DNA from: a virus
Length of the DNA stretch: 64,000 bases
Direction: 5' to 3' (one strand)
IMG/VR virus record: IMGVR_UViG_3300031229_000002
Location: 7,797 to 71,796 of that record
The position numbers and the translations under genes were made by a program. The notes beneath the pieces were generated by a model that saw nothing but the letters and a program-made list of their open reading frames with translations, ran no database searches and had not been told where the DNA came from. This document shows positions 895-28,928 of the stretch, in pieces (positions within the stretch are counted from its first letter, which is position 1; the number at the start of each line of letters is the position of its first letter).

Positions 895-914
895 CCCGCG
901 ATCGGGAGCACGTT

Positions 915-3017: not shown

Positions 3018-3028
3018 GGAAGGCCGCC

Positions 3029-3469: not shown

Positions 3470-3628
3470 CGCGCCTGCCACACTGAAGACGCGCGCCGGG
3501 TAGCGCCCGGCATGAAGACCCCGCCGGCACCCCCCCCCCCCCCGCTGGTGGGGTCTTCGCCTGTTTCCGTCCGTGTTGTCGGCGCCGGCCGCTACGATCC
3601 GGGCCACTGTCACGTCCTTGGGGGGACC

Positions 3629-4805: not shown

Positions 4806-5221
4806 GGCACGTCGCTGTCCGCCGCCATCCGACGCCGCTGCTCATCGGCTTCCGCGCGCTCCCGCATCCACGCAGCCTCCTTCAGCCGCTCAGCCGCGAT
4901 GAACTCCGGCACACCGGGCAGCGACTGGAACTCCGGGTCGGAGAACACCGGCACTAGGCCGCCGCACTGCACGGGGCCGTTCATGAAGTACAGCTGGTTG
5001 TGCCCGATGCTGCCGCGCGCGTGGTCGATTCCGTCAGGCACGATGATCTCGACGGCGTTTGCGCCGCACTCGCCGCCGAGGGTGAAGTCGCGGGTGGCGG
5101 TGAGCCAGGTCTGTCGGGACCACGGGTAGTCGTAGGCGTGGGTGGGTGGCCGCCAAGGCGTGAGCCAGGCGCGTAGCCAGGTCAGGTATTCGTCGAGGGT
5201 GGCGGGGCGTAGGACGCTCAT
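4790..5221 (-). CDS. Hypothetical protein
   Basis: Coupled to upstream gene; GAGGAG RBS. Confidence 0.6.
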   Translation of the reverse strand: MSVLRPATLDEYLTWLRAWLTPWRPPTHAYDYPWSRQTWLTATRDFTLGGECGANAVEIIVPDGIDHARGSIGHNQLYFMNGPVQCGGLVPVFSDPEFQSLPGVPEFIAAERLKEAAWMRERAEADEQRRRMAADSDVPRSAR

Positions 5222-5724
5222 ACGGTGGTCTCCTCGTTGCCGTACACCTCGTCGTGCGTCAGCAGCCCCATACTCAGCGCCGACGACACGACGGTGAAAT
5301 CCTTGTACGCCTCCCGGGCCTGAGCCGCGTCCTGGTCCAGCTTCCTCGTTTGCAAGTCGTCGGCGCGGGAGCGGGCCAGCTCGGCGAGCGTCTTCGCTTC
5401 CTCGTCGGTCAACGGGCGCCCCTCACGTGGCTCCGGCTTCGGCCGCGCTGGCTGCTGCCTCGGCGTGGCCCCGGTGCGCGGGGTGGAAGGCCGGGCGGCC
5501 GGTGGCGGTGGGGTAGTGCTCAGTTCCTCCACCCTCCGGCGCAGCGCCTTGACCTCCGCCAAGGCTTCGGCCGCACTGTCGTACCACTCCGGCGGCACGA
5601 CGTAACCGGCAGGCTTCCCGCGCCGGGTGATCTCGGTGTGCGCGTTGCGGAACTGGCTGCCGTCGAGGACGTCGGCGAACTTCTTGCGGGCCTCCTCGAC
5701 GGGGAGGCTCTGCGGCTTAGTCAT
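5218..5724 (-). CDS. Phd/YefM-like DNA-binding domain with C-terminal extension
   Basis: EEARKKFADVLD...TEITRRGKPAGYVVP; apparently leaderless (TACACT 6 nt before ATG). Confidence 0.75.
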   Translation of the reverse strand: MTKPQSLPVEEARKKFADVLDGSQFRNAHTEITRRGKPAGYVVPPEWYDSAAEALAEVKALRRRVEELSTTPPPPAARPSTPRTGATPRQQPARPKPEPREGRPLTDEEAKTLAELARSRADDLQTRKLDQDAAQAREAYKDFTVVSSALSMGLLTHDEVYGNEETTV

Positions 5725-5849: not shown

Positions 5850-6206
5850 ATGAACGCCGCAGCCACCACCCACCAGCACACCAACTGCCTCCGCTGCGGC
5901 AGGAAGTTGACCTCGGCCAAGTCATGCGCCGCCGGGTATGGCCCCACCTGCAAGCGCAAGGTCCGCGAAGCCGCCAAAGCCGAGGTCGTAGCCCAGTACA
6001 AGCCCCACCAGATCGCCAAAGCCGAAGAACTTATCGAGCAAGGCGCCCTCATCCCCCTCCGCCGCGGCATCTACCTCGCCCCCTCCTCCGACGGAACGCG
6101 CACCTACAAGGCCCACCGCACCGCCTGCTCCTGCCCCGCAGGGATCAAGGGCCTCCACCCGTGCAAGCACCGCATCGCCGCCCACATCCTCAGCCTCGCC
6201 GCCTAG
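5850..6206 (+). CDS. DUF6011-like zinc finger plus SWIM zinc finger protein
   Basis: CLRCGRKLT...GYGPTC and CSCP...PCKH motifs. Confidence 0.75.
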   Translation: MNAAATTHQHTNCLRCGRKLTSAKSCAAGYGPTCKRKVREAAKAEVVAQYKPHQIAKAEELIEQGALIPLRRGIYLAPSSDGTRTYKAHRTACSCPAGIKGLHPCKHRIAAHILSLAA

Positions 6207-6215
6207 GAGCCCGCC

Positions 6216-6398
6216 ATGCCGATCAACACCGACCAGACCAACAGCAGCGAAGACGCACCCGAGACCCCCCGCAGTATCCGGCCCGTCATCGAGCACGCGC
6301 TCACCGTCTACTACGACGGGAACGCCGAGCTTGCCCGCACCCTCATCGACCGCCTACTCGGCGAGAAGGACACCCGGCCGAGTAGCCCCGCCGCCTGA
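6216..6398 (+). CDS. Hypothetical protein
   Basis: AGGAG RBS. Confidence 0.5.
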   Translation: MPINTDQTNSSEDAPETPRSIRPVIEHALTVYYDGNAELARTLIDRLLGEKDTRPSSPAA

Positions 6399-6424
6399 CC
6401 GCCCGACACGACAGGAGAAACCCC

Positions 6425-6694
6425 ATGACCGAGCTCGCCCACCGCCAGCAGCCGACCAGCCCGACCGTCTGGGTCCTCGCCCAAGGTGAAGACCACGAAG
6501 GCGGCGAAGTCCTCGGCGTCTACGCCTCCAAGGAAGCCGCCAAGGGCCCGTTCGTCGAAGCCGCCCGCCGCATCCCGTTCGACCTCGACAGCGCGTGGCA
6601 GGACGAAGAGAGCGGCGCGGTCCACGCTCATGGCGGCTGCGACTGGGTCTCCCTCGAACCGCACCCGCTCATCGGCGCACCGCAACTCGCCTGA
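6425..6694 (+). CDS. Hypothetical phage protein
   Basis: AGGAG RBS; VWVL...VLGVYASKEAA. Confidence 0.6.
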   Translation: MTELAHRQQPTSPTVWVLAQGEDHEGGEVLGVYASKEAAKGPFVEAARRIPFDLDSAWQDEESGAVHAHGGCDWVSLEPHPLIGAPQLA

Positions 6695-7801: not shown

Positions 7802-8071
7802 ATGCTCCTCACCCGAGATGGGCTTCTCGCCCTCGCCGACTTCACGATCCGCGCCGCGCCCGAGGAAGACGAGAACTTCAACCGCGTCGGCCACGACGGC
7901 ATCCTCCTCGAATGCGTCCACCCGCACGACGACAAGGTGTGGAGGAAGCAGTGGGCCGTCCACGTCGCCCCGCCCAGCCTTCGAGACCTGGTCTTCGTCG
8001 CCCAGCAGCACTGGGCCCGTGAGCATCGCGCCACGCAGACGGAGGGCACGGAAGCCGAGGTGGCCAAGTGA
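7802..8071 (+). CDS. Hypothetical protein
   Basis: Leaderless ATG after promoter motif; overlaps next start. Confidence 0.55.
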   Translation: MLLTRDGLLALADFTIRAAPEEDENFNRVGHDGILLECVHPHDDKVWRKQWAVHVAPPSLRDLVFVAQQHWAREHRATQTEGTEAEVAK

Positions 8072-9093
8072 CGCGCCTGCTGCTCACCGGGGCGTCCGGG
8101 TTCGTCGGCTCCACCGTCCTCGCCCACGTCCTCGCCAACACGGACTGGCACGTGACGTGCCCCGTCTCCTACCGGCACCACGGCGACGGCGCCCGCATCA
8201 ACGCCGTCCTCGACGCACAGCCCGACGCCCGCAACCGGGTCGACGTCATCGCCCACGACCTCGCCCTGCCGATCACGCCGGTCCTCGCCGAGCAGATCGG
8301 CCCCGTCGACTACGTGTGGAACATCGCCTCCGAATCCCACGTCGACCGCTCCCTGACCGGGCCGGTGCCGTTCGTCCGGAACAACGTCGAACTCCAGCTG
8401 AACATGCTGGAGTACGCCCGCCTGGCGAAGCCACGGCTGTTCCTCCACATGTCCACCGACGAGGTATTCGGGCCGGCCGCCGAGGGCTACCGGCATCACG
8501 AGTGGGACAGCATCCGCCCCTCCAACCCGTACGCCGCGTCGAAGGCCGCGCAGGAAGCGATCGCCTACTCGTATTGGCGCGCGCTCGGCGTGCCTTTGAT
8601 CGTGACGAACACGATGAATCTTCTTTCACCTGCCCCGCAGGCGTCCGAGAAGTTCATCCCGAAGATCGCCCGCGCCATCTACCGCGGAGAGAAACTCACC
8701 GTCCACGCCAGCCCTGAAGGAGTCTCCGGCTCCCGCTGCTGGGTCGATGCCCGCGACTTCGCCGCCGCCTGGCTGTGGCTCACCCAGCACTTCGACGGCG
8801 ACGAGCGGCTCACGTACTACCCGACGATGCCCACCGGCCCGCTGCGCTACAACATCGTCGGCGAGGAGGCGACCAACCTCGACGTCGCGCAGCGCATGGC
8901 GGCAGCGGCCGGGCGCACCCTGGACTACGAGTTGATCGACTATCACGGCCAGCGCCCAGGCCACGACCACCGATACGCGCTCGACGGGTCGAAGCTGGCT
9001 GAGCTGGGCTGGCCTGGTCCGCGGCCCCTCGACGAGACGCTCTCCGACATCGTGAAGTGGTACGGCGACAATCCGCAGTGGCTCGCCGCGTGA
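8068..9093 (+). CDS. rmlB: dTDP-glucose 4,6-dehydratase (RmlB-like)
   Basis: TGASGFVG, ASESHVDRS, STDEVFG, PSNPYAASK, RPGHDHRYALD. Confidence 0.85.
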   Translation: MTRLLLTGASGFVGSTVLAHVLANTDWHVTCPVSYRHHGDGARINAVLDAQPDARNRVDVIAHDLALPITPVLAEQIGPVDYVWNIASESHVDRSLTGPVPFVRNNVELQLNMLEYARLAKPRLFLHMSTDEVFGPAAEGYRHHEWDSIRPSNPYAASKAAQEAIAYSYWRALGVPLIVTNTMNLLSPAPQASEKFIPKIARAIYRGEKLTVHASPEGVSGSRCWVDARDFAAAWLWLTQHFDGDERLTYYPTMPTGPLRYNIVGEEATNLDVAQRMAAAAGRTLDYELIDYHGQRPGHDHRYALDGSKLAELGWPGPRPLDETLSDIVKWYGDNPQWLAA

Positions 9094-9767
9094 CCGGCAT
9101 CTACCGGGCTGCGGTCATCCCGACGCGGAACCGGCACGACCTGCTGACCGAGTGCGTCGGCTCCGTCGTGGACCAGGTCGACACCGTGTTCGTGATCGAC
9201 AACCAGTCCGATCCGCCGATCGACGTCGCCCAGTGGTACGGCAAGGTCCGTGCCGTACGGGCCCCGCTGGACCCGCCGAACATCAGCGCCTTGTGGAACA
9301 TCGGTCTCGCCCTCGTCGATTCGGCCGCCGCACGACACGGCGCAGACGCATGGGACATCGCCGTCCTCAACTCGGACGTGACCGTGCCGCCTGGCTGGAT
9401 CGACGGCCTGTCGAAGGCGATGCGCTCCGGGCCGGCGGTGCTCGCCTACCCCGACCAGCACGGCGGCCGGCGGCAGATCCTCCACACGAAGGCTGAGCCG
9501 GTGGACCTGCGGACGCGGATCACGGGCTACGCCTACATGCTGCGCGGCGAGGCGGGGCTGCGCATCGACGAGTCGATGGCCTGGTGGTTTTCGGACGATT
9601 CGGTGGATTGGGAGGCGCGGGAGAAGGGCGGGGCGCTCCTCGTCCCCGGCCTGGCGGTTGAGCACCGCTGCCCCAACGGGTCCATGTACGAACGGCCGGA
9701 GCTTCAGACCCAGGCAGGTCGAGACCGCGAGACCTTCAAGGCGAAGTGGGGGCGGACCCCATGGTGA
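9090..9767 (+). CDS. GT-A fold (GT2-like) glycosyltransferase
   Basis: VIPTRNR...VIDNQS...VLNSDV...WWFSDD. Confidence 0.8.
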   Translation: MTGIYRAAVIPTRNRHDLLTECVGSVVDQVDTVFVIDNQSDPPIDVAQWYGKVRAVRAPLDPPNISALWNIGLALVDSAAARHGADAWDIAVLNSDVTVPPGWIDGLSKAMRSGPAVLAYPDQHGGRRQILHTKAEPVDLRTRITGYAYMLRGEAGLRIDESMAWWFSDDSVDWEAREKGGALLVPGLAVEHRCPNGSMYERPELQTQAGRDRETFKAKWGRTPW

Positions 9768-9780
9768 ACAGGAGCACACG

Positions 9781-10596
9781 TTGAAGATCGCAGTAACAGG
9801 TGGTGCCGGTTTCTTCGGCCGCGCCACCATCGAAGCCGCCGAGGCCGCGGGGCATGAGGTGTGGGCGTTCGACCGTACGCAGGGCCTCGACGTCCTCGGC
9901 AGCCTGAGTGCGCTCGAGGGTGCGGACGCGGTGATTCACCTCGCCGGGGTCCTCGGCACTAGCGAGTTGTTCGACATGGCGGAGACCGCCATCCACGTCA
10001 ACGTCATCGGCACACTCCGGATGCTGGAGTGGTGCCGCGACCACGACGCCCGCTACGTCGGCGTGTCGATGCCGGACCCGTTCCCCAGCGTGTACACCGC
10101 GACTAAGGTCGCCGCCCGCAGGCTGACCACCGCCTGGCACCACGCCTACGGGCTGCCGGTGTCGACGGTCCGGGCGTTCAACGGGTACGGCCCCTACCAG
10201 CACTACGGGCCGGGCCATCCGCAGAAGATTCTCCCCACCTTCGCCCGCGCCGCGTGGGAGAACCGGCCGCTGCCCATCTGGGGCGACGGTGAGCAGGCCA
10301 TGGACCTCGTCCACGCCGACGACGTCGGGCGGATGCTCGTCGAAGCCACCGGATACGGGGATGACGAGACGTTCGACGCTGGAACCGGCGTGGCGGTCAC
10401 GGTGAACGAGCTCGCGGAGTTCGTGCTGAAGGAGACCGGGTCGAAGGCGGGCATCGAGTACCTGCCGATGCGTGCGGGTGAGGTGCCGGTGCAGATCACC
10501 GCGACGGGTGAGGGCTGGGACCGGTTGGACTGGAAGCCGGAACTCGATTGGGACCGGATTGCCGAGACTGTGAGGTGGTACCGCGATGGCCGCTGA
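9781..10596 (+). CDS. NAD-dependent epimerase/dehydratase
   Basis: TGGAGFFG, VIHLAG, YTATK, RAFNGYGP, IWGDGEQ. Confidence 0.85.
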   Translation: MKIAVTGGAGFFGRATIEAAEAAGHEVWAFDRTQGLDVLGSLSALEGADAVIHLAGVLGTSELFDMAETAIHVNVIGTLRMLEWCRDHDARYVGVSMPDPFPSVYTATKVAARRLTTAWHHAYGLPVSTVRAFNGYGPYQHYGPGHPQKILPTFARAAWENRPLPIWGDGEQAMDLVHADDVGRMLVEATGYGDDETFDAGTGVAVTVNELAEFVLKETGSKAGIEYLPMRAGEVPVQITATGEGWDRLDWKPELDWDRIAETVRWYRDGR

Positions 10597-11245
10597 TATC
10601 GCGATCGTGACCGCGTGCTACGACGCCTACGACACGATCAAGCCCGTCATGCCGCAGGACGGCGTCGAGGTGGAGTGGATCCTCGTCACCGACACGCCGC
10701 CAGATGCGGATGCCGCGCAGGGCTGGACGGTCGTGCATGAGCCGCGCCCGGATGTGCCGCCAGTGCGTGCGGCGAAGCGGCCGAAGTTCGAGCCGTGGCG
10801 GTACACCGACGCAGGCGCCTCGATCTGGGTGGACGCGTCGTTCCGTGTCACGTCGCCGGACTTCGCTGCGAGCTTGCTGGAGTTGGCGACGCCGATCGCG
10901 CAGTTCGTGCACCCGTGGCGGGACTGCCTCTACTTGGAGGCCGTGGAGGTGGCCGCGCTCGGCAAGGACCCCGATGGTGCGGCGGCGTGGCAGACCAAGC
11001 GGTACCGGGACGCCGGACATCCGGAGCACTGGGGGCTATGGGCGTCGGGTGTGATCGCGCGGAAGCACACGGCCGCGGTGAAGCGGACGGGTGCGGCGTG
11101 GGCGCGGGAGGTCGAGGCGGGTTCGGCGCGGGATCAGGTGTCGCAGCCGTACGTGCTGCGTCAGGCGAAGTTGAAGCCGGTGGCGTTGCCGGGCACGCAT
11201 TTGGCGAACGCGTGGCTGAAGTACGAGGGAAGCGGCAGACACTGA
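10586..11245 (+). CDS. DUF616 (TOD1/MUCI70-like) glycosyltransferase-like protein
   Basis: SIWVDAS, HPWRDCLYLEA, RDQVSQPYV. Confidence 0.7.
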   Translation: MAADIAIVTACYDAYDTIKPVMPQDGVEVEWILVTDTPPDADAAQGWTVVHEPRPDVPPVRAAKRPKFEPWRYTDAGASIWVDASFRVTSPDFAASLLELATPIAQFVHPWRDCLYLEAVEVAALGKDPDGAAAWQTKRYRDAGHPEHWGLWASGVIARKHTAAVKRTGAAWAREVEAGSARDQVSQPYVLRQAKLKPVALPGTHLANAWLKYEGSGRH

Positions 11246-11685
11246 TGGCGAGTATCGAGATCGGCGGCGGGAAACTCGCCCAACGCGGCTGGATCAACCT
11301 CGATCCGACGCACGGCACCGGCCCATGGCGGCGCCTCGCACAAGACACGCCCTGGCCCACCGGCGACCACACCATCGAGGGCATACGCGCCTCCCACGTC
11401 ATGGAACACATCCCCGCCGGAGACCCGCGGATCGCGGTGATGAACGAAGCCCACCGTGTCCTCCACCCCGGCGGCGTGTTCGAGATCCGCGTGCCCAACG
11501 CGCTCAGCGGGACGTGGCACGCGTTCGCCGACCCCACCCACGTGAGCTTCTGGTGCGTGGAGTCGTTCCACTACCTCGACGGGACGAAGGCCGCGCACGC
11601 CGACTACGGCCTGCGCCCGTGGAAGACGAGGGAGCTGCGCATCCAGGGCGACAATGAGATCTTGTGGATAGGAAGCCCGCGGTGA
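11245..11685 (+). CDS. Class I SAM-dependent methyltransferase
   Basis: IEIGGG...GWINLD, ASHVMEH, EAHRVLHPGG...VP, DPTH. Confidence 0.8.
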   Translation: MASIEIGGGKLAQRGWINLDPTHGTGPWRRLAQDTPWPTGDHTIEGIRASHVMEHIPAGDPRIAVMNEAHRVLHPGGVFEIRVPNALSGTWHAFADPTHVSFWCVESFHYLDGTKAAHADYGLRPWKTRELRIQGDNEILWIGSPR

Positions 11686-11891
11686 GCGACGACTGCATTC
11701 ACGACGTGCGGCTGTGCCCAACCTGCGGAGGACTCCAGGCCCAGCGCATGGAACGGCTGGAAGGAGAGGCCACAGCGAACGTCGTGATCACCCCCGAGGA
11801 CGGAGAGCCATTCAACTTTGCCGCGCCCCTGGAGCTTTATGTTGGCCCCGCGTTCGAGCCGTGTCCGGAGGGCAAGGAGAAGACCGAGTGA
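11682..11891 (+). CDS. Hypothetical protein
   Basis: GTGA overlaps on both sides; CxH...CPTC. Confidence 0.45.
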   Translation: MSDDCIHDVRLCPTCGGLQAQRMERLEGEATANVVITPEDGEPFNFAAPLELYVGPAFEPCPEGKEKTE

Positions 11892-12451
11892 AGCCGGTCG
11901 TGACGGTGGTCGTCCCGTACCATGCGGCCCGCAAGCGGAACGGCATGCTGCAACGCGCCATCAACTCCGTCAACGCGCAGACCATCCCCCACCTGCTGAT
12001 CACCGTCGAAGACACCCTCGGACAAGGCGCCGCCAAGACTCGGCAACGCGGCCTCGACCAAGTCACCACCGAATGGGCCGCGTTCCTCGACTCCGACGAC
12101 GAGATGGACCCCACCCACCTGCAACAACTCCTCGCCTACGCCGAACAGACCGGCGCCGACTACGTGTACCCGTGGTTCCGCGTGGTCGGGGGGCGCGACC
12201 CGTTCCCCATGTTCTTCGGCAAGCTATGGGACGACGCCCACCCACACTCGACCACCATCACCATCCTCGTACGCACCACCCTCGCGCAGCAGGTCGGATT
12301 CACTGGCGAAGGCGAAGACTTCCGCTTCACCAAAGGCTGCATCGCCGCTGGCGCGAAGATCGTGCACTATCCGGCGAAGACGTGGACGTGGCACCACGGG
12401 CCGCACAACTCCAGCGGCCGACCGAACCGCGGCGACGCCCGCCGCCGCTGA
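11888..12451 (+). CDS. GT2-family glycosyltransferase
   Basis: VTVVVP...LQRAINSVNAQT...WAAFLDSDD, GED. Confidence 0.8.
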   Translation: MKPVVTVVVPYHAARKRNGMLQRAINSVNAQTIPHLLITVEDTLGQGAAKTRQRGLDQVTTEWAAFLDSDDEMDPTHLQQLLAYAEQTGADYVYPWFRVVGGRDPFPMFFGKLWDDAHPHSTTITILVRTTLAQQVGFTGEGEDFRFTKGCIAAGAKIVHYPAKTWTWHHGPHNSSGRPNRGDARRR

Positions 12452-12596: not shown

Positions 12597-13961
12597 ATGA
12601 CCACCGAGGACCGGGCACAGATCGCGCAGCGCGCAGCCGCGCTCCTCGGCGCCCACCTCAAACCCCGCTGGCAGCCGCAACCCCACCAGAAGCCGCCCCC
12701 GGGCGAGTGGACGGGATGGCTCCTCATGGCCGGCCGAGGCGCCGGGAAATCGAAAGCCTGCGCCGAGTACGTCCGCCAGCACGTGGCAGGAAAGGCGTGC
12801 TTGCCAGGACCGGTGCCCCACTGGATCGCCATCATCGCCCCCACCCTCGGCGACGGCGTCACCTCCATGTACGAAGGCCCCGGCGGCATCCGCAACGCCG
12901 ACCCCGGCGCACGCCTCGTCCAAGCCCCCGGCGGCATGGTCATCCGCTGGCCCAACGGCAGCCAAGCCAAACTCTTCGGCAGCCACAGCCCCGAAGACGT
13001 CGAACGCCTCCGCGCCGGCGGCAACTCGTGCCTCGCTGTCCTCGAAGAGTTCGCCGCGTGGCGGTACATGGAACAGGCCTACGACCAACTCCGCTTCGGC
13101 CTCCGCTCGGGCCCGCGCCCGCACTGGATCGCGGCGACCACACCGAAGCCCCGGCCGCTCCTGAAGCGCATGCTCGCAGGCGAGATCGCCGGGGTCGTCC
13201 ACACGCACGCCACGATGTACGACAACCCGCACCTCGAACAGTCCGTCAAGGACGCCCTGGAGGACACGTACGCGGGTACCGACATCGGCGCGCAGGAACT
13301 CCAGGGGCGCCTGATCGACGAGGTCGCGGACGCACTGTGGACACGGGCGACGCTGGAGGAAACCCGGGTGCGGCCGGACGAGGTGCCGGAGCTGAAGCGA
13401 ATCTCCGTTGGCGTCGACCCGTCCGGCGGGGCCGGGGAACAGGGCATCGTCGTGGTCGGCAAGTCGGGGCTCGTACTCCCGGGGGATGGCGGCCGGCCTC
13501 AGCATCACGGGTACGTCCTCGACGACCGGTCGTGCCGCCTGTCACCGGACCAGTGGGGGCGGCGTGCGGTGCAGGCCGCGATCGACTGGGAGGCCGACGA
13601 GTTGACCTGTGAGGTCAACTACGGCGGGGCCATGTGTGTGGCCACGCTGCGCACGGCGGCCGAGGCGCTCGGCGTGGACATCCCGATCCGGACGGTCACC
13701 GCGACCCGGGGCAAGGTGGTGCGCGCGCAGCCAGTCGCCGCGCTGAGTTCTCAGGGGCGTTGGCATATGGCGGGGGTGTTCGAGGAGTTGGAAGACCAGC
13801 TCGCCACCTGGTATCCGGAGTTGGGCTGGTCGCCGGACCGGTTGGACGCGATGGTGTGGCCGGCCTGGCAGTTGAAGCTGGTTGGTACGGCGTCGCGTGG
13901 TCAGGGTTCGTTGGGTGGGGAGTTGGCCAGAAAGCAGATCGTTGGCGGGCGCGTACGGTGA
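12597..13961 (+). CDS. terL: Terminase large subunit
   Basis: AGRGAGKS Walker A, VLEE Walker B, TTP, GVDPS, EVNYGG, SPDRLDA; leaderless ATG 12597 after promoter motif (12558-12590). Confidence 0.92.
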   Translation: MTTEDRAQIAQRAAALLGAHLKPRWQPQPHQKPPPGEWTGWLLMAGRGAGKSKACAEYVRQHVAGKACLPGPVPHWIAIIAPTLGDGVTSMYEGPGGIRNADPGARLVQAPGGMVIRWPNGSQAKLFGSHSPEDVERLRAGGNSCLAVLEEFAAWRYMEQAYDQLRFGLRSGPRPHWIAATTPKPRPLLKRMLAGEIAGVVHTHATMYDNPHLEQSVKDALEDTYAGTDIGAQELQGRLIDEVADALWTRATLEETRVRPDEVPELKRISVGVDPSGGAGEQGIVVVGKSGLVLPGDGGRPQHHGYVLDDRSCRLSPDQWGRRAVQAAIDWEADELTCEVNYGGAMCVATLRTAAEALGVDIPIRTVTATRGKVVRAQPVAALSSQGRWHMAGVFEELEDQLATWYPELGWSPDRLDAMVWPAWQLKLVGTASRGQGSLGGELARKQIVGGRVR

Positions 13962-14389
13962 CCGCCATGGACCTGGGGCTGCTGCTCGTTGTGATGTCGC
14001 TGGCGACCTACCGCCTTACGCGGCTCGTCGTGGCGGACACTTTTCCGCCGGTGGTGTGGTTGCGTGACCGGCTCGCCGGGGGCTGGCGGGATCTGACGGC
14101 GGAGGAGCAGCATCTCCTCTTCGGCGGCGCCCTCCCCGGTGACAAGGCGGTGGAGCTGCGCAAGGCATGGTCCGTGAACCCGGAGGGGGAGCAGCGCTAC
14201 CTGTACCGGTGGAAGCGGTCGCCGTTCTGGCTTGCCGAGTTGCTGTCGTGCCCGTGGTGTGCGAGCGGTTGGGTCGCGCTCGGGGTGACGGGTGGGGTGT
14301 GGGCGGCGGTTGGCCTGCCGGTGCCGCTGCTGGTGTGGCTGGCGACGTGGGCGCTCGGTGCGTTGCTGGCGGCGCAGGAATGGGCGTGA
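13958..14389 (+). CDS. DUF1360-like membrane protein
   Basis: LATYRLTRLVVADT...ELLSCPWCASGWV. Confidence 0.7.
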   Translation: MTAMDLGLLLVVMSLATYRLTRLVVADTFPPVVWLRDRLAGGWRDLTAEEQHLLFGGALPGDKAVELRKAWSVNPEGEQRYLYRWKRSPFWLAELLSCPWCASGWVALGVTGGVWAAVGLPVPLLVWLATWALGALLAAQEWA

Positions 14390-14448
14390 CGTTTCCTGTG
14401 GGATGGTGACGACGAGGGCCGGTTCCCCCCGGGCTCTTGTGGTGGGGT

Positions 14449-14489
14449 GGGGAGCCGTCTGCGTACGGGCGTTCCGCAGGCGGCTCCCC
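14449..14489. terminator. Strong hairpin between convergent genes
   Basis: GGGGAGCCGTCTGCG...CGCAGGCGGCTCCCC, 15-bp stem. Confidence 0.7.
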
Positions 14490-14499
14490 TGGCGTTTGG

Positions 14500-15174
14500 T
14501 CAGTCCGTCTGCGGCTCCCAACGGGTGACCTCGTACCGGCCGAAGCCCTGCGAGCGGGATGCGCCGATGCCCTGCTGTTCGCCGGTGAGCCAGAGCATGG
14601 CCCATTCCTGGTCGGTGAACTTGTGGTCGGCGATGATCGTGAAGTCGAACGACGTCTTGTCGATGATCTCGGTGTACTGGATGCCGGTCTGACCGGTGCG
14701 CGGGTTCTTGGGGAACGACTGGAGGATCCGGGAGGGCTCGGTGACGTCGAGCTGGAGGACATCCTCGACGACCATGATGTGTTCGGCGACGAACCCGAGG
14801 ACGCCCTTGTTGGTGGCACCCCACTTCATCTTCAGCTTTTCGGCTGCTCGCGCGACTCCGGCGGCTTCCTTGATCGCGGCCTTGAGCTGTCGGCCTTCGA
14901 TGTAGAGGCCGTGTTCGTTGCGCTTGAAGCCGTTGAGGTGCTTCAGCTTGTCGACCTGCTCGGCGGCTTCGTCTGCGGTGATGCCGCGTTCGACCATGGT
15001 CTGCGCGACGAGGTCCCGGATCAGGTCGTCCTTGTCGGCGAGTTTGGTTCCGAGCCAGCCTTTGGCGACGTTGGGGTCTGAGGGGACGCCTCCGGCGAGG
15101 TTGTGGGCGGTGATGGTGGCGTTGTAGCGGTGGGGCCATGCGGTGGTGGTGTAGGTGGCGAAGGCGCTGGTCAT
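14500..15174 (-). CDS. Orphan RAMP-superfamily (Cas7/Csm3-like) RNA-binding protein
   Basis: N-terminal strand YNATITAHNLAGG; GLYIEGRQLKAAIKEA (cf. RAMP PxIPGSSLKGxxR); QYTEI; C-terminal Gly-rich loop GIGASRSQGFGRYEV; AGGAG RBS. Confidence 0.8.
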   Translation of the reverse strand: MTSAFATYTTTAWPHRYNATITAHNLAGGVPSDPNVAKGWLGTKLADKDDLIRDLVAQTMVERGITADEAAEQVDKLKHLNGFKRNEHGLYIEGRQLKAAIKEAAGVARAAEKLKMKWGATNKGVLGFVAEHIMVVEDVLQLDVTEPSRILQSFPKNPRTGQTGIQYTEIIDKTSFDFTIIADHKFTDQEWAMLWLTGEQQGIGASRSQGFGRYEVTRWEPQTD

Positions 15175-15199
15175 GGGGTTCTCCTGGTGGTGGTGGCTA

Positions 15200-16125
15200 G
15201 TCGGTGAGGCGGGGGCCGTTCCGGGGATGGCTGGGCTTGTCGCTGCGGGTAGGGCGGAACAGTGGCGCGGGGAGGTGGGTGGGGCCGGTTAGTCGTCGGG
15301 GTCGGGGCGTGCGGGCGGTGGCGACTGGGGTCGTCGGCAGGTGTAGGTGCGGGGTGTGATGTGGCGGGCGGTCTCGGGGCGCGGCGGGTAGTCGGTATGG
15401 GCCGGGGGGACCGGGTGAGGCACGAACTGGGTTGTCGGTGCGGGCGGGGATGTGCGGTGTGGGCTCGACTTGGAAGGTCGGTTCGGGTTGGGAGGGGCTC
15501 GGGTCGGTGTGGCGAGTCGGTACGGGCTGGCGCGGTTGGGCTGTGGTGAGCCGGTCCTGGGCTGGGCTGTCGACGTGGGTCGGGGTGCGCGGCGTGGGTG
15601 GGGTACGTCGGCGGGGGCTGGGAGGGTACGTACGGTGCCGTGACGCGATGGCTGGGGACGAATAGTCGGATAGTGGCGGGCAGAACGGAGTCGCGTCGGG
15701 TCGTGGTGAGAAGTCGGCAGGCAAGGGCGGGGAAGGGCTGAAGAGGGGAGTCGGCGGGAGGTGGGCGGAGAAGCGAGGAACGGGCCAGAGACGGGCCGGG
15801 TAGTCGGCATGGATCGGAAGGGAGGGCATTGCGTGGGACGGGAAGTCGGCTGGGCTCGGGTGGCGAAGGCATGCGAAGTCGGTGGGGAGCGGCAAGAAAT
15901 GCGGCGTATGGGGTGGGGCAGTCGCCGAGGTGTGAAGCGGATTGCTGGGCACTGGGAAGTCGGCGCGGCTTGTGGCGTATTGGGATGCGCCGGGAGGTCG
16001 ACGAGGGAAGGGTGGCGATGGAACGAGACGGGTGGGGATGTCGGAGCGGGATGACCGGAGGAGGGAAGCTATGACGGGGGGAGTCGTCTCGGTGTGGGGC
16101 GCGGTGCATCGGCCAGAACACGAAC
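15200..16125. repeat. Pentamer-phased array of 20 complete units (GTC anchor + n x GNNNN on + strand); putative guide-like ncRNA array, transcribed strand unknown
   Basis: 21 GTCG anchors; spacings 39,53,41,58,43,43,39,53,38,58,48,37,53,42,33,43,38,38,43,43 (15/20 exactly 5n+3); fixed G every 5 nt. Confidence 0.88.
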
Positions 16126-16129
16126 CCGC

Positions 16130-16678
16130 TCACGCAGCAGCAGCCACCGGAGCCTGAGACTTCCCCGTCACCGAGCGGTACATCGTCAGGTACTGCTCCT
16201 CCGTGAACACGTCGCCCACCACCCGGTCACCGAGCTTCTTCGCGACCGCCCGATGAAACGATGCCTCCAACTTCGCCTGCCGCGCCGTCTCGTCATACCG
16301 ACCAGCCACGAACCGGCAATCCTCCGCCGTCATCCGCGCCACCGTCCGCCGCGTGTTCTCCTCGTCCACCACATACTCCGCAGCGAACGGACTCAGCACC
16401 GCAACATCCCCCGAGTCCGCGAACGACCGAGCCGCCTCCGCGAATGCCCGACGCGGCGCCGACACGCGTGCCGCCTGCCGACGACTGTTCGACCGCCGAG
16501 CCACCGCATCCGCCAAGAAGACGGCCGCCTTCACCTCCAACCAGCCCGACAGCAGGTCCGGGTCCTCGGCGCGCAGCTTCTCCACCAGATCGGCGGCGAC
16601 GAGCGGCGCCGTGTAATCCCCCTCCGGGATGGCGTCCTCGATCGCGGCGTTCATGTCGGCGATGTAGTCCCGGCTCAT
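16130..16678 (-). CDS. Hypothetical helical protein, first gene of the RAMP/array cassette
   Basis: GAAGGGAAG RBS before ATG 16678; stop codon abuts the array. Confidence 0.75.
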   Translation of the reverse strand: MSRDYIADMNAAIEDAIPEGDYTAPLVAADLVEKLRAEDPDLLSGWLEVKAAVFLADAVARRSNSRRQAARVSAPRRAFAEAARSFADSGDVAVLSPFAAEYVVDEENTRRTVARMTAEDCRFVAGRYDETARQAKLEASFHRAVAKKLGDRVVGDVFTEEQYLTMYRSVTGKSQAPVAAAA

Positions 16679-16739
16679 CAGCAACTTCCCTTCACCGTGG
16701 CAGGCGTGACGAGTTGAGCGCCTTCAGTTCAAAGCGGCG

Positions 16740-16858
16740 GCGCGAAATCAGAATGCATTAACCGCACCGATTTGGCAAAAAGCAATTAGGTTTACCGGCC
16801 CACCTAATTCAATTCCGAATTCGCCCCGGAATGATCTTTACGAGCCCGCGCCTACCGT
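16740..16858. promoter_or_regulatory. AT-rich divergent control region: inverted repeat AATTAGGT-N10-ACCTAATT (16784-16809) and late-promoter-like motif (16826-16858)
   Basis: Markedly AT-rich; perfect 8-bp inverted repeat; CCGGAATGATC...TACCGT. Confidence 0.65.
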
Positions 16859-16895
16859 GCCCCGCGACAGCCAACCGCCCTAAGTGGAGGCACTC

Positions 16896-19800
16896 GTGGC
16901 CTGGTATCACGCCTTCAGCCGACGGCGTCCGCTGCCCACACCCCTGCCCCTCCCAACCGAAGAACCGAAGACACTCACCGCCTCAGCCGCACCCGTCACC
17001 AGCCCCCGCACCGAACTCCTCCGCACCCCCGACACCTGGCAAAACGAAGCCTGGGAGTACTACCAAAACCTCGGCGAATTCCGGTACGCCGCCGACTGGG
17101 AAGCCAACGTCCTCTCACGCATCCGCCTCTACGCCGCCAAAATCGAACCCGGCACCGACGAACCCGTACGCGCCAACGCCGGAACCGCCGTCGACCTCAT
17201 GACCAACTTCGCCGGAGGCGTCGGCGGCCAAGCCCAAATCATGGCCGGACTCGCCACCCAGCTGACTGTCCCCGGCGAGGGATACCTCATCGTCGAGAAC
17301 GTCAACGGCATCGAACAATGGTCCGTCCGCAGCATCGACGAAGTCCGCGCCGCCCGCGGCAAGTACGAAGTCCTCGACGAAAACAGCCCCCGCACCGGCG
17401 ACCAGTGGCGCCCCCTCGCCCCCGAATCCATGGCGCCGATCCGGGTGTGGCGGCCGAACAAAAGGTTCCACCACATCGCCGACAGCCCCGCCCGCGCCGC
17501 CAGGTCGACGATGCGCGAGTTGGAGCTCGTCAACCGGCACATCACCGCCCAGTACCTCAGCCGGTTGGCGTCGGCCGGAGTCGTCGTCTTCCCCGACGAG
17601 ATCACCTTCCCCGTACGCGAGGAGTTCGCAGACGCCCCCGATCCGTTCATGGCCGAGTGGATCGAGAACGCGAAGACCGCGATCAGCACCCCCGGCACGG
17701 CCGCCGCCGTGGTGCCGATGCCGATCCGGGTACCGGGCGAGTACGTCGACAAGATCGCGCACATTGATTTCACGCTGCGCTCCGACGACAAGATCATCGA
17801 GAAGCGGGACTCAGCGATCAAACGCCTCGCCTCCCAACTCAACGTCCCACCAGAAGTGTTGCTCGGAATGGGTGAGCTAAACCACTGGTGTACGTTGGAC
17901 AACGTGCGAATCATGACGCGGGCAGGGTGGAAGACGTACGACCAACTCACCGTGGGCGAGGAGGTGCTGACGCTCAACCACGACACCGGACTCTCCGAGT
18001 GGCAACCACTGCTCGCAGTGAACACCTGGGACGTGGTCGACGAACCGATGGTGACCATCACCGGGCGACGTCACACCTCGACCACCACGCTCAACCACCG
18101 CTGGCCGATCCTGTCCGGCTTGGCGCGTAAGCGAGGCAGGGACTGGACCACGACCGCCGAGCTGATGCAGGCGGCCAAGGCGGCAGGCGACGACGCCCAG
18201 CGACACGAGTACCTCGTTCTGGCCGCGCCGAGTGCCGATCTCCCCACAGAGCCCAAGTACCAGGACGCCCTAGTCGAGTTGGTCGCCTGGTACTTCACCG
18301 AAGGCAACCGAGGAGTCCGTGAGGGGCGGAATACGCCGCAGGTCATCATCCACCAGTCGCACATAGTGAACCCCGACAACTGCGCACGTATCCGCCGCGC
18401 CCTGACTGCCCTCTTTGGGCCAGCGAGCGAAAGCCTCGACAAAGGAGGCCGATACGCGACACCGGAGTCCGTGGCGCGCCGTGCAGAAGCACGGCGCCTG
18501 CGGGCCGAAAACCCGAAGATGCCAAACGTGGAGATCGCCCGTCGCCTCGGCGTCTCGGGAGCCATGGTGGCCAAGTACCTCGCCAAGGAAGCGAAGCTGC
18601 GTGACTCAGCGCCGCGCTGGCGTGAGCGAGTCAAGCGCAGCGGTCAGCTGACCATCTTCATCCTCAACTCGGCTGCTGCGGAGGTCATTCTCGAACACGC
18701 TCCGGGACGTGTCGTCACGCCGGAGTTCGTTCAGCGGCTCACCGCTGCGCAGCTTGAGTTGTTCATTGATACCGCCGTCCGGGGCGATGGGCACGTGACG
18801 GCGAAGGATTCCTCAACCTTCGGCCAGAAGGATCCGGCGATGTGCGATGCATTTGAGCTCGCGTGCATCCTGTCGGGACGCTCGGTCAACCGATACGAAG
18901 TAACCGGCTTGGGCGCATCTGCCAACGGGCCTCGTCTCAAGACTCAGCACGTCGTTTCGTCCACGAACAGGTCATTGACGTTCGCCCCGCGTGGCCGATC
19001 CTTCGAGGAGTTCACCCACACCGGAACCATCTGGTGCCCGACCACCCCCAACCGATCGTGGCTGGCCGAAGATAACGGGCACGTCTTCTTCACTGGCAAC
19101 TCCGCATGGATCGCCGACGAGACGAGCCTGAAGGTCAACACGGCCCCCGACGCTGAACTCGTCTCTCAGGCGCTGACGACCGGCTACCTCCAGCCGCGCC
19201 TCAAAGCCTCCGGCGTGGAGGACTGGGCAACCTGGGTCGTCTGGTACGACATGAGCGAACTGACCCTGCGCCCCGACCGCAGCGACGACGCAGTCCAGTT
19301 GTACGACCGGCTGGAGATCAACGGCGCCGCACTCCGTCGCGAGACCGGCTTTAACGAGGACGACCGGCCCGAAGGCGACGAGCTGAAGGAGCAGGCCCTC
19401 AAGGTCATCATCAAGACGCTGCCCTCCGGCGCCGGATCTGCCCTGTCTCAACTCGTCGGCGAACGCGTCGAGATCACCCCCGTCGCAGCCCAGACACCCG
19501 CCGCGGCAGCAGCACAGGACGACGCCCCGCAGGCAGAGGAACGCGCCGCACCCGCCACCCGCGACGAACCGCCACCGACAGACGAAGCAGCCCGGCAGGC
19601 GGCGGCCGAAGCACGCGCGGAGCGGATGGCCCAACAGGCGAAAGCGTTGCACGCAGTCCGGTTCGCTGCTGGCCGTCCGCCGGACCTGCTGCACCCGGCG
19701 CTGTGTTCCTCGCACGCCTACAGCTGCCCGTTCACGCACGCGGCAGCCAAGCTGCAGACGCTACCGAGACCCGGAACGTCGGGCGTGTACGAGGCACGGC

Positions 19801-19910
19801 TGAGCGCGTTCGGGCAGCTCACGATCGGCCGGCTGTCCCCGCATCTGGACACCACGGGTTTTCTGACCACCGTCTCCCCTCGGAGTAGCAATGGGTTCGC
19901 GAAGCGGTAA
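16896..19910 (+). CDS. Portal protein containing an intein
   Basis: WQNEAWEYY, RVWRP, RLASQLNVPPEVLLG, NHW/SAW; GGAGG RBS before GTG 16896; position after TerL. Confidence 0.85.
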   Translation: MAWYHAFSRRRPLPTPLPLPTEEPKTLTASAAPVTSPRTELLRTPDTWQNEAWEYYQNLGEFRYAADWEANVLSRIRLYAAKIEPGTDEPVRANAGTAVDLMTNFAGGVGGQAQIMAGLATQLTVPGEGYLIVENVNGIEQWSVRSIDEVRAARGKYEVLDENSPRTGDQWRPLAPESMAPIRVWRPNKRFHHIADSPARAARSTMRELELVNRHITAQYLSRLASAGVVVFPDEITFPVREEFADAPDPFMAEWIENAKTAISTPGTAAAVVPMPIRVPGEYVDKIAHIDFTLRSDDKIIEKRDSAIKRLASQLNVPPEVLLGMGELNHWCTLDNVRIMTRAGWKTYDQLTVGEEVLTLNHDTGLSEWQPLLAVNTWDVVDEPMVTITGRRHTSTTTLNHRWPILSGLARKRGRDWTTTAELMQAAKAAGDDAQRHEYLVLAAPSADLPTEPKYQDALVELVAWYFTEGNRGVREGRNTPQVIIHQSHIVNPDNCARIRRALTALFGPASESLDKGGRYATPESVARRAEARRLRAENPKMPNVEIARRLGVSGAMVAKYLAKEAKLRDSAPRWRERVKRSGQLTIFILNSAAAEVILEHAPGRVVTPEFVQRLTAAQLELFIDTAVRGDGHVTAKDSSTFGQKDPAMCDAFELACILSGRSVNRYEVTGLGASANGPRLKTQHVVSSTNRSLTFAPRGRSFEEFTHTGTIWCPTTPNRSWLAEDNGHVFFTGNSAWIADETSLKVNTAPDAELVSQALTTGYLQPRLKASGVEDWATWVVWYDMSELTLRPDRSDDAVQLYDRLEINGAALRRETGFNEDDRPEGDELKEQALKVIIKTLPSGAGSALSQLVGERVEITPVAAQTPAAAAAQDDAPQAEERAAPATRDEPPPTDEAARQAAAEARAERMAQQAKALHAVRFAAGRPPDLLHPALCSSHAYSCPFTHAAAKLQTLPRPGTSGVYEARLSAFGQLTIGRLSPHLDTTGFLTTVSPRSSNGFAKR
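17889..19100 (+). mobile_element. Intein (404 aa) with LAGLIDADG homing endonuclease, in portal
   Basis: Starts CTLDNVRIMTRAGW, ends IWCPTT...FFTGN then Ser; LVAWYFTEG and FIDTAVRGDG motifs; removal restores NHW-SAW. Confidence 0.9.
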
Positions 19911-28926: not shown

Positions 28927-28928
28927 AC

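What the first reader, a model, noticed from the sequence alone, without database searches (positions are those of the whole stretch)
15200..16125. Array grammar: GTC anchor + (GNNNN)n, unit lengths quantised at 5n+3
GTCG anchors on + lie at 15200, 15239, 15292, 15333, 15391, 15434, 15477, 15516, 15569, 15607, 15665, 15713, 15750, 15803, 15845, 15878, 15921, 15959, 15997, 16040 and 16083. Fifteen of 20 spacings are 33/38/43/48/53/58; the other five fit 1-2 nt indels. By hand count, in 14 indel-free units all 104 non-anchor pentamers have G at the same phase, e.g. 15997: GTCGA CGAGG GAAGG GTGGC GATGG AACGA GACGG GTGGG GAT. The next base is usually G, and the two bases before the fixed G vary freely. 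No two units share sequence, so this is not a satellite, and period 5 excludes codon bias. Inference: each unit is a separate guide carrying information in discontinuous dinucleotides, and the anchor (CCGAC on the minus strand) marks a processing boundary.
Basis: partly seen in the sequence, partly recalled or inferred. Interest (0 to 1): 0.9.

Follow-up and report, generated by a model that had tools for sequence, protein, structure and literature searches.

The report
Phage VIPR guide-RNA array, C-based
This 0.9-kb stretch of a soil actinophage is very likely the guide-RNA array of a VIPR system, a CRISPR-related phage weapon first described in 2026 preprints, so it is a real and neat example of a known kind and not a new one.

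Summary
All 21 GTCG anchors are present and 15 of 20 spacings are 5n+3. In the 16 units whose length is 5n+3, 133 of 136 pentamers carry G at one phase.

No reading frame across the array is conserved in relatives. The same grammar, (NNNNC)n-GAC on the other strand, lies beside the homologous gene in 58 of 79 related phage loci, some with only 28-31% protein identity and 46% GC.

That gene (14500-15174, minus strand) folds as a Cas7/Csm3-type RAMP (Z 11.6). Its family matches the published Vipr family profile to profile (probability 95.4%, E 2e-8). The locus is therefore a VIPR system as described in bioRxiv 10.64898/2026.04.26.720920: a Vipr gene, a partner gene and pentamer-coded guides.

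It differs from the characterised type II in four ways. Only one base per step is fixed. The units have no tail and run on directly from one another. The partner gene is unrelated to Vap1. The RNA is probably the C-rich strand.

Two guides in related arrays match rival vipr genes perfectly under the published 1-nt-skip rule. One of them matches the window's own vipr gene. No target was found for the window's own units.

This scan has already reported this clade on other DNA.

The parts
14500..15174 (-). vipr gene: 224-aa lone Cas7-like RAMP protein (Vipr family, divergent clade)
   Evidence: No Pfam or PHROG family. The only sequence hits are weak ones on RAMP glycine-loop regions. AlphaFold model pLDDT 93. 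All top fold matches are Cas7-family subunits: Foldseek E 1.4e-8 and Z 11.6 over residues 11-224 to type VII Cas7 and Csm3. Profile-profile match to 39 type II Vipr homologues: probability 95.4%, E 2e-8, 132 columns.
15175..15199 (-). spacer between the last GAC and the vipr start codon, containing a GGAGA ribosome-binding-site-like motif
   Evidence: Read directly from the sequence. There is no room here for a promoter, so the vipr mRNA must start inside or upstream of the array (inference).
15200..16085 (-). array of 21 guide-like units. On the minus strand each reads GAC-(NN-ccC)k, i.e. k dinucleotides flanked by k+1 triplets, which gives 5k+3 nt. On the plus strand each reads GTC-(GNNNN)n.
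   Evidence: Plus-strand anchors lie at 15200, 15239, 15292, 15333, 15391, 15434, 15477, 15516, 15569, 15607, 15665, 15713, 15750, 15803, 15845, 15878, 15921, 15959, 15997, 16040, 16083. The fixed base is present in 133 of 136 pentamers. The grammar is conserved in relatives although the sequence is not. The strand assignment is inferred.
16086..16129 (-). about 44-nt leader between the partner gene's stop codon and the first GAC
   Evidence: With the 3' end of the partner gene, this is the only long stretch of the upstream region that aligns with the closest relative L016 (86% over 242 nt, which runs through this leader and past the first GAC). Apart from one unit (90%/50 nt), the rest of the array does not align (sequences).
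16130..16684 (-). partner (vap-like) gene: 184-aa all-helical protein of unknown fold
   Evidence: 119 homologues and no Pfam family. Found upstream of vipr on the same strand in 42 of 79 loci. Model pLDDT 87. No fold match: Foldseek E > 1 and best VIA Z 4.2. No similarity to SUSP1 Vap1 (E 0.35).
14531..14550 (-). site inside the window's vipr gene (codons for QGFGRYE, the G-loop) that a guide unit of the related phage locus L063 matches 14 of 14 under the 1-nt-skip rule, with the skipped base at codon position 3
   Evidence: row WIN: 14, '+', gene nt 625. I converted the position to window coordinates by hand. The same guide also matches its own phage's vipr gene, which I cannot explain.

Best explanation
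The array, the 224-aa gene and the 184-aa gene together form a VIPR (Viral Interference Programmable Repeat) system carried by a soil actinophage.

Proposed mechanism, by homology with the characterised type II system. The array is transcribed and Vipr protomers bind it one per five-base step. Each protomer locks the fixed part of the step and exposes the two variable bases. The string of exposed dinucleotides reads double-stranded DNA of a competing phage or mobile element, skipping every third base. That skipped base is usually the codon wobble position. Binding silences transcription.

Features particular to this clade (inferred):
- The RNA is the C-rich strand, which is the minus strand here and the sense strand of both genes.
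- Only the last base of the triplet, a C, is strictly fixed. It probably sits in the pocket that holds the pyrimidine of GGY in type II.
- Each unit has k dinucleotides flanked by k+1 triplets, the first triplet being GAC. This accounts for the 5n+3 length rule.
- Units follow one another with no tail, so 21 guides are packed into 886 bases.

What is shown: the grammar, its conservation across relatives, the RAMP fold, the homology to Vipr, and perfect 1-nt-skip matches of two related guides to vipr genes.

What is inferred: transcription, the strand, processing at the GAC, silencing activity, and the targets of this phage's own guides.
For: Grammar and significance.

Not coding: the frame that is open across the array in the window (351 codons) is closed within 5-108 codons in L002, L005, L008, L010, L011, L013 and L015.

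Conserved association: 58 of 79 loci have at least 3 clean units within 2 kb on the vipr strand, 5 have them on the other strand, 3 are mixed and 13 have fewer than 3. Unit density is 2.39 per kb near the gene against 0.23 per kb farther away. Phages of 46% GC use the same grammar.

Protein.

Published system: lone RAMP, vap gene and pentamer vrRNAs; one protomer per repeat; the 1-nt-skip rule; seven types; alternative NNNGG, YNNNG and NNNNG repeats; staggered arrays (10.64898/2026.04.26.720920, Results, Discussion and two Methods sections read; 10.64898/2026.04.26.720927, abstract and section 5). Non-canonical triplets GAC/NN and CAC/NN are reported in 10.64898/2026.10.21.760802 (passages).

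Guide function in this clade:
- A unit of L022 (8 NN) matches 16 of 16 on the KVAEGWLK codons of 8 rival vipr genes, but only 14 of 16 on its own gene.
- A unit of L063 (7 NN) matches 14 of 14 on the QGFGRYE codons of 14 vipr genes, including the window's.
- In every one of these hits the skipped base is codon position 3.
- Among 303 guides with at least 7 NN there are 2 perfect hits under the 1-nt skip, against 0 under skips of 0, 2 or 3, three shuffles and one swap.

Strand:
- In SUSP1 the GGY strand is the vipr strand. Here the C strand is the vipr strand in 58 loci against 5.
- The array fills the gap between two co-oriented genes and leaves no space for a promoter.
- In the G-loop alignment, SUSP1 D177 (a G1 contact) aligns to Ala (52 of 61 sequences), W178 (G2) to a variable position and R138 (G2) to Ile. 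R179, which lines the pyrimidine pocket, aligns to the invariant R207 (61 of 61) (residue roles from 10.64898/2026.04.26.720927 section 5).
Against: None of the window's own units has a target. Best matches in the phage's own 71.8-kb genome do not clearly exceed shuffled controls. In the 0.88 Mb of related loci, the 1-nt-skip rule is not enriched overall over skips of 0, 2 or 3 or over a shuffle.

Among all 426 guides, hits with at most one mismatch on vipr genes are as common under the control rules as under the 1-nt skip: 18 (2 with 0 + 16 with 1 mismatch) against 16-22. The support therefore rests on two guides.

The L063 guide also matches its own phage's vipr gene, whereas the preprint reports no self-targeting.

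The NN composition fits codon positions 1-2 no better than a flat distribution does.

Canonical features are missing: there is no GGY (on the G strand phase 3 is a pyrimidine in only 32% of pentamers), no 3' tail, and 6-11 steps per unit instead of 9-16.

Strand evidence is mixed. In L084 the hairpin between vipr and the array has a T-rich tail only for G-strand transcripts. The preprint names NNNNG repeats, which would be this array read on the G strand.

No RNA data are available.
Confidence: 0.8

Rival explanations
1. It is the same VIPR system, but the guide RNA is the G-rich plus strand: GUC-(G g g N N)n, an 'NNNNG'-type repeat. It would be transcribed antisense to vipr and the partner gene, for instance by read-through of the plus-strand terminase-to-portal operon.
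For: The fixed base is G, as in canonical GGY, and conservation falls 5' to 3' within the triplet (98, 57, 54% G) as it does in GGY. The preprint lists NNNNG repeats. In L084 the hairpin next to the array scores as a terminator only for the G strand. TerL and portal, on the plus strand, flank the cassette.
Against: The C strand is the sense strand of vipr in 58 loci against 5, mirroring the co-orientation seen in SUSP1. The residues that hold G1 and G2 in SUSP1 are not kept, while the Arg of the pyrimidine pocket is invariant. Phase 3 is purine-rich, but the canonical pocket excludes purines. In L064 the G strand would begin 2 nt after a strong terminator. The C-strand RNA must exist in any case, as part of the vipr mRNA.
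Confidence: 0.2
2. The array is a scaffold or decoy RNA. It loads Vipr protomers, its own or a rival's, and does not guide them to DNA. This would resemble the satellite vrRNAs that redirect a phage's VIPR to decoy sites.
For: No targets were found for the window's units. The variable positions are compositionally flat. The abstract of 10.64898/2026.10.15.759431 describes standalone vrRNAs used to misdirect VIPR.
Against: Two related guides spell conserved vipr motifs exactly, in codon register. Single units stay 88-95% identical across phages whose neighbouring units are unalignable, which suggests that unit sequence matters. The local search space of 0.88 Mb is far too small to expect targets.
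Confidence: 0.08
3. The region is translated. The 320-codon proline-rich frame at 15171-16133 on the minus strand overlaps the stop codon of the upstream gene and the start codon of vipr.
For: The frame is open across the whole array in the window and in L006/L007, and has GTGA and ATGA overlaps at its two ends.
Against: The frame is closed in 7 of the other loci examined. A strict 5-nt period cannot come from codons. All three minus frames are long because the strand is 52% C. NCBI locus tags of the two flanking genes are consecutive in three annotated genomes. The translation has no Pfam or PHROG family.
Confidence: 0.01
4. It is a DNA-level element, such as a G-quadruplex-prone tract, a packaging site or a replication site, unrelated to the RAMP gene.
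For: The plus strand is 52% G and lies between terminase and portal.
Against: The array travels with the vipr gene through unrelated neighbourhoods: only vipr and the partner gene are conserved around it. It lies upstream or downstream of vipr and on either strand. Low-GC versions with no G runs keep the grammar.
Confidence: 0.01

Closest known systems
Type II VIPR of Escherichia phage SUSP1 (KT454805.2 / NC_028808.2) and the Pseudomonas fulva prophage: Vipr + Vap1 + vrRNAs (bioRxiv 10.64898/2026.04.26.720920 and 10.64898/2026.04.26.720927)
   Same: - Phage-borne, two-gene locus with a lone small RAMP protein.
- The protein family is homologous: probability 95.4%, E 2e-8.
- Non-coding tracts of five-base steps lie beside the gene, each step with a fixed part and two free bases.
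- Guides in this clade obey the 1-nt-skip, wobble-aligned rule in two cases, and vipr genes are among the targets.
   Different: - One fixed C (or G) per step instead of GGY.
- 6-11 steps per unit instead of 9-16.
- No conserved structured 3' tail; 21 units abut one another and are separated only by a GAC triplet.
- The array sits inside the operon, between the partner gene and vipr.
- The partner gene shows no similarity to Vap1.
- The G1 and G2 contact residues D177, W178 and R138 are not conserved.
- The protein is 224 aa against 195 aa.
Non-canonical VIPR arrays in the 2026 preprints: NNNGG, YNNNG and NNNNG repeats and 'staggered arrays' (10.64898/2026.04.26.720920, Methods and legend of fig. 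S18); GAC/NN, CAC/NN, WGT/NN and TGH/NN motifs (10.64898/2026.10.21.760802, section 2.3)
   Same: Five-base period with a reduced or altered fixed triplet, next to a Vipr-like fold. Triplets ending in C (GAC, CAC) are reported. [quoted passage not shown]
   Different: I could read only text and legends. The figures and supplementary data that would show whether this actinophage clade, its GAC punctuation and its 5n+3 rule are already covered were not available. The staggered arrays were not among the layouts that the preprint says were confirmed by RNA sequencing.
Cas7 backbone subunits of type III (Csm3/Cmr4) and type VII CRISPR-Cas effector complexes
   Same: Same fold over almost the whole protein: Z 11.6, rmsd 3.5-4.9, 157-171 residues aligned. 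RAMP glycine-rich loop present.
   Different: 12-16% identity. The step is 5 nt instead of 6 nt. There are no CRISPR repeats and no cas5, cas10 or cas11 beside it. The RNA itself carries a fixed base at every step.
Type IV-B Csf2 (Cas7-like) plus Cas11 filament on non-CRISPR RNA (PMC7937560; only the start of the abstract was seen, in a search listing)
   Same: A minimal Cas7-like filament with a small helical partner and no CRISPR array.
   Different: As I read the start of that abstract, type IV-B assembles on an RNA other than a crRNA. Here a dedicated patterned array is encoded next to the gene. The 184-aa partner gave no match to Cas11 or to any other solved fold.

Membership tests
VIPR system | Lone RAMP protein homologous to described Vipr proteins | tested here: met
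   Profile of 61 family members against a profile of 39 SUSP1-type Vipr homologues: probability 95.4%, E 2e-8, 132 columns. Against the single SUSP1 sequence: E 1.1e-3, probability 20%. Fold Z 11.6 to Csm3 and type VII Cas7.
VIPR system | RAMP hallmarks: RRM core, glycine-rich loop, thumb | tested here: inconclusive
   The G-loop is present (G202-x-G204-A-x-R207-S-Q-G-x-G212, nearly invariant) and the whole fold superposes on Cas7 subunits. I did not map the thumb explicitly. The model has a long beta hairpin at residues 166-182.
VIPR system | Tandem five-base repeats with a fixed part and a hypervariable NN, next to the vipr gene | tested here: met
   133 of 136 pentamers carry the fixed base and two phases are flat. 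The same holds beside the gene in 58 of 79 loci.
VIPR system, type II (canonical) | GGY triplet in each repeat | tested here: not met
   On the G strand: G 98%, G 57%, pyrimidine 32%. On the C strand only the last C is fixed. The contact residues for G1 and G2 are not conserved.
VIPR system, type II (canonical) | 9-16 repeats followed by an invariable structured 3' tail on each vrRNA | tested here: not met
   Units have 6-11 steps and abut one another, with only GAC between them. No Rfam family matches in 14000-17200.
VIPR system | Adjacent accessory (vap) gene | tested here: inconclusive
   A conserved 184-aa partner lies upstream in 42 of 79 loci, and a different 179-aa neighbour in 10 more. 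The 184-aa protein shows no similarity to Vap1 and has no recognisable fold. The sequences of vap2-6 were not available to me.
VIPR system | Targets recognised by NN-x-NN (the 1-nt-skip rule), often with the skipped base at the wobble position | tested here: inconclusive
   At family level there are 2 perfect hits among 303 guides against 0 in each of 7 controls, all in codon register. There is no overall enrichment in the 0.88-Mb local set and no target for the window's own units.
VIPR system | vrRNAs expressed and bound by Vipr | not testable with these tools
   No RNA run was listed for this DNA. No protein-RNA modelling tool was available.
VIPR system | Carried mainly by phages or proviruses, with no CRISPR array or cas operon | tested here: met
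   The genome is a single 71.8-kb virus record. TerL and portal flank the cassette. There are no long direct repeats in 13000-19000. Only the two cassette proteins were screened against the cas and defence libraries.
CRISPR-Cas (type III, IV or VII) | CRISPR array of conserved direct repeats separated by spacers | tested here: not met
   The only shared element between units is about 11 degenerate bases (nCC-GAC-TWCCC). Tandem Repeats Finder finds no such array.

The most novel reading that the evidence does not exclude
This actinophage clade is a distinct VIPR type that the preprints have not resolved. It would differ as follows:
- The guide is the C-rich strand.
- Only the pyrimidine pocket of the ancestral GGY site survives.
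- Each guide has k dinucleotides framed by k+1 triplets and begins with GAC.
- Some twenty tail-less guides are strung end to end inside the operon, which would need a way of phasing or cutting the RNA unlike that of the tailed or ribozyme-separated arrays.
- Some guides are aimed at the conserved motifs of rival vipr genes.
Probability: 0.4. Interest if true: 0.55.

Novelty: new member of a known kind. Interest (0 to 1): 0.35.

Why it matters
VIPR was first described in 2026 preprints, and only the GGY type has been studied at the bench.

This clade is large. It gave 542 clusters at 50% identity (E up to 1e-3) and more than 1500 proteins. If the inferred strand is right, it writes its guides with a single fixed C. 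It also packs about 20 guides per kilobase with no tails.

If confirmed, three things would follow:
- It would show how far the Vipr-RNA code can drift.
- It would offer a very compact multi-guide format.
- It would raise the question of how a continuous array is cut or phased into separate filaments.

The guide-versus-vipr matches suggest that these phages fight one another's VIPR systems, as reported for SUSP1 relatives.

For the scan itself, this is a further example of a clade it has already reported several times.

Tried and rejected
Translation of the array is rejected: the open frame is not conserved.

Self-targeting of the phage genome: the units were matched at the four non-fixed positions of every pentamer against both strands of the 71.8-kb genome. 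Best scores did not clearly exceed 20 shuffles per unit; three units topped their shuffles by 1-2 matches.

Skip-rule search in 0.88 Mb of related loci showed no overall difference between skips of 0-3 and a shuffle.

NN composition against codon phases: codon positions 1-2 fit better than phases containing the wobble base, but no better than a flat distribution. Within-unit coherence was raised for all three phases, so it is not specific.

DNA search of the phage collection with 14400-16800 gave only a 66-nt match in Microcystis phage Mae-JY09. A protein search there gave the same phage for vipr and nothing for the partner gene.

Rfam gave no match.

The promoter scan of 14200-17000 found nothing. 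Its terminator-like hits were not above what shuffles gave.

Partner protein: no Pfam hit above threshold (DUF7291, E 0.076) and no NCBIfam or PADLOC hit. Foldseek gave no match below E 1. The wide VIA search gave a best Z of 4.2 over 39 residues, to a SopB DNA-binding domain, which is below any useful level.

Complex prediction for Vipr with the partner protein returned no verdict (score 0.03).

The look-up of sequencing runs listed no RNA holder.

A 300-genome sample of the genus of locus L011 had no further carrier of the family: 1 of 301, and that one is the genome already known.

Literature searches that returned nothing relevant before the VIPR lead: 'Cas7-like / phage-encoded / array', 'every fifth nucleotide / Cas7', 'RAMP / actinobacteriophage / CRISPR-like' and 'Csm3-like / prophage'.

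I did not run the decisive search of large collections with the gapped NN-x-NN patterns of the window's units.

Supplementary files of the preprints (figs S17 and S18, data S3 and S4) were not available. They may already show this clade.
Full report
**The observation.** Fifteen of the 20 spacings are 33, 38, 43, 48, 53 or 58, and the other five are 37-42. In the 16 units whose length is 5n+3, 133 of 136 pentamers begin with G. The next two positions are G in 57% and 54% of pentamers. The last two positions are flat. The lag-5 autocorrelation of G is 0.186, above all 2000 first-order Markov simulations (maximum 0.132). Units do not repeat one another.

**Not a gene.** A 320-codon proline-rich frame on the minus strand spans the array and overlaps the flanking stop and start codons. 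In relatives the corresponding frame is closed after 5-108 codons in seven loci and open only in the window and in L006/L007. All three minus frames are long because the strand is C-rich. NCBI locus tags of the two flanking genes are consecutive in three annotated genomes.

**Surroundings.** The window belongs to a single 71.8-kb virus record. The cassette lies on the minus strand, between TerL plus a DUF1360 protein on one side and the portal gene on the other. It has three parts: a 184-aa gene (16130-16684), the array, and a 224-aa gene (14500-15174). Neither protein has a Pfam or PHROG family.

**Conservation of the array.** The 224-aa protein has more than 1500 homologues and 542 clusters at 50% identity. 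I fetched 79 distinct loci.
- Clean units ((NNNNC) five times or more, then GAC) are ten times denser within 2 kb of the gene than farther away: 2.39 against 0.23 per kb.
- 58 loci have them on the gene's strand, 5 on the other strand, 3 mixed, and 13 have fewer than three. Several of those 13 are cut short.
- The array may lie upstream (29 loci), downstream (12) or on both sides (17).
- Phages of 46% GC whose protein is only about 30% identical use the same grammar, so it is not a by-product of high GC.
- Pooled over 74 clean units, the boundary reads nCC-GAC-TWCCC.
- Sequences are not conserved. Against the closest relative (93% protein identity), only the leader and one unit align. Single units can nonetheless stay 88-95% identical in phages whose other units differ.
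- Around the gene, only the 184-aa family (42 loci) and a 179-aa neighbour (10 loci) recur.

**The protein.** Sequence searches touch only the glycine-rich loops of Cas6, Csm3 and Csm4, weakly. The AlphaFold model is confident (pLDDT 93). Its matches are Cas7-family backbone subunits throughout (Foldseek E 1.4e-8). Z is 11.6 over residues 11-224 to type VII Cas7 and Csm3, and all 50 rows shown are of this kind.

**What is known.** My first four literature searches found nothing relevant.

The discovery paper (Results, Discussion and two Methods sections read) describes:
- phage-borne loci with a lone RAMP (Vipr), an accessory vap gene and vrRNAs of 9-16 YNNGG repeats followed by a 3' tail;
- recognition of double-stranded DNA by the NN dinucleotides, skipping one base that is usually the wobble position;
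- silencing of competing phages and satellites;
- seven types, alternative NNNGG, YNNNG and NNNNG repeats, staggered arrays and ribozyme-separated arrays.

The structure paper (abstract and one section) shows one protomer per repeat and names the residues that hold G1, G2 and Y3. A third preprint (passages) lists non-canonical triplets such as GAC/NN and CAC/NN.

**Membership.** I fetched SUSP1. Its 195-aa gene at 28474-29061 carries the residues named in the structure paper, and its GGY repeats are on the same strand as the genes. A profile of my family against a profile of 39 homologues of that protein gives probability 95.4%, E 2e-8 over 132 columns. The window's gene is therefore a Vipr homologue and the locus is a VIPR system.

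It is not the canonical type. There is no GGY and no tail, the units are shorter, and the partner shows no similarity to Vap1 and has no recognisable fold.

**Which strand.** A search for double-stranded targets cannot tell, because the pattern is its own mirror image. Four lines favour the C-rich strand (minus in the window):
- It is the sense strand of vipr in 58 loci against 5, as the vrRNA strand is in SUSP1.
- The array fills the space between two co-oriented genes and leaves 25 nt before the start codon, so it must be part of the vipr mRNA.
- In L064 the G strand would start 2 nt after a strong terminator.
- In the G-loop alignment, the SUSP1 residues that hold G1 and G2 (D177, W178, R138) align to Ala, a variable position and Ile. 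R179 of the pyrimidine pocket aligns to the invariant R207.

On the C strand the step reads (c c C)(N N), the same order as (G G Y)(N N), with the pyrimidine retained.

Against this, the L084 hairpin looks like a terminator only for the G strand, and the preprint's NNNNG class may be this array read the other way. I put the C strand at about 0.75.

**The 5n+3 rule.** Read as triplets and dinucleotides, a unit is GAC-NN-ccC-NN-...-nCC. That is k dinucleotides each flanked by a triplet on both sides, so 5k+3 bases, and the next unit starts at once with its own GAC. This is my inference. It fits the published picture in which two adjacent protomers hold each triplet.

**Do the units guide?** The window's own units have no target in the phage's own genome or in 0.88 Mb of related loci, where the four skip rules and a shuffle perform alike.

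Two guides of related arrays stand out. A unit of L022 with 8 dinucleotides matches 16 of 16 on the KVAEGWLK codons of 8 rival vipr genes, 15 of 16 on 5 more, and 14 of 16 on its own gene. A unit of L063 with 7 dinucleotides matches 14 of 14 on the QGFGRYE codons of 14 vipr genes, including the window's (14531-14550) and, oddly, its own. In every case the skipped base is codon position 3.

Among 303 guides with at least 7 dinucleotides, perfect hits number 2 under the 1-nt skip and 0 under each of seven controls. With shorter guides included, one-mismatch hits are no more frequent than in controls. This is suggestive support for VIPR-type targeting in the clade. It is not proof for this array.

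**Verdict.** The system was already described in 2026 preprints, and this scan has already reported this clade on other DNA. I file it as a new member of a known kind.

Open points that could make it a distinct variant are the C-based code, the tail-less end-to-end layout and the unknown partner protein. I could not see the preprints' supplementary figures, which may already cover these points.

Noticed in passing
window 16884-19910 (+): The portal gene is 1008 aa. The PHROG portal family (phrog_776, E 1.7e-114) matches in two stretches, the best at residues 21-336, and Pfam gives nothing. The long middle part may be an inserted element such as an intein. That is my guess from reading the translation and was not tested.
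   Followed up: partly
L063 5717 onward (unit just downstream of its vipr gene, 5001-5696): This guide unit matches its own phage's vipr gene 14 of 14 under the 1-nt-skip rule, as well as 13 other vipr genes. The discovery preprint reports no self-targeting. It could be autoregulation, a decoy or chance.
   Followed up: partly
L084 vs L086, position 6217-6219: Two phage contigs that are 99.7% identical (33 mismatches in 10,759 nt) differ by three adjacent substitutions inside one pentamer of the array, with the fixed C kept. There is a second cluster of changes at 8704-8740, outside the array.
   Followed up: no
L084 vs L083, about 6123-6268 / 6107-6667: Two phages 88% identical along the locus differ by about 400 nt of extra units in one array and share a single unit in the middle (94%). 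Arrays therefore change by gain and loss of whole units.
   Followed up: partly
L064 about 2085-3000 (minus strand): A well-formed array convergent with vipr contains an internal duplication of three short units and several units that share a beginning. This suggests growth by duplication and divergence. A 16-bp bidirectional terminator hairpin (2042-2079) separates it from vipr.
   Followed up: partly
L010 about 3460-3750: A run of N (masked or withheld sequence) lies inside the array of the Streptacidiphilus carbonis locus.
   Followed up: no
L001 (Microcystis phage Mae-JY09, PP395641.1) 4708-5064: A cyanophage has a homologue of the vipr gene (32% identity) followed downstream by about 10 units of the same grammar, and a 179-aa gene just upstream that recurs in 10 loci. 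All are annotated as hypothetical proteins.
   Followed up: partly
301 genomes of the genus of locus L011 (genome search): The Vipr family profile found a match in only 1 of 301 sampled genomes, the one already known. The clade seems to live mostly in free phages and metagenomes, not in sequenced chromosomes of that genus.
   Followed up: partly
window 15569-15622: A short 19-nt, 2.8-copy tandem repeat inside the array (score 62) is the only place where neighbouring units resemble each other.
   Followed up: no
window 40-3469 and 8068-12451: Other first-reader notes on this window mention a TraB-type conjugation module and a sugar or glycosylation operon between the terminase genes. I did not look at them.
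   Followed up: no
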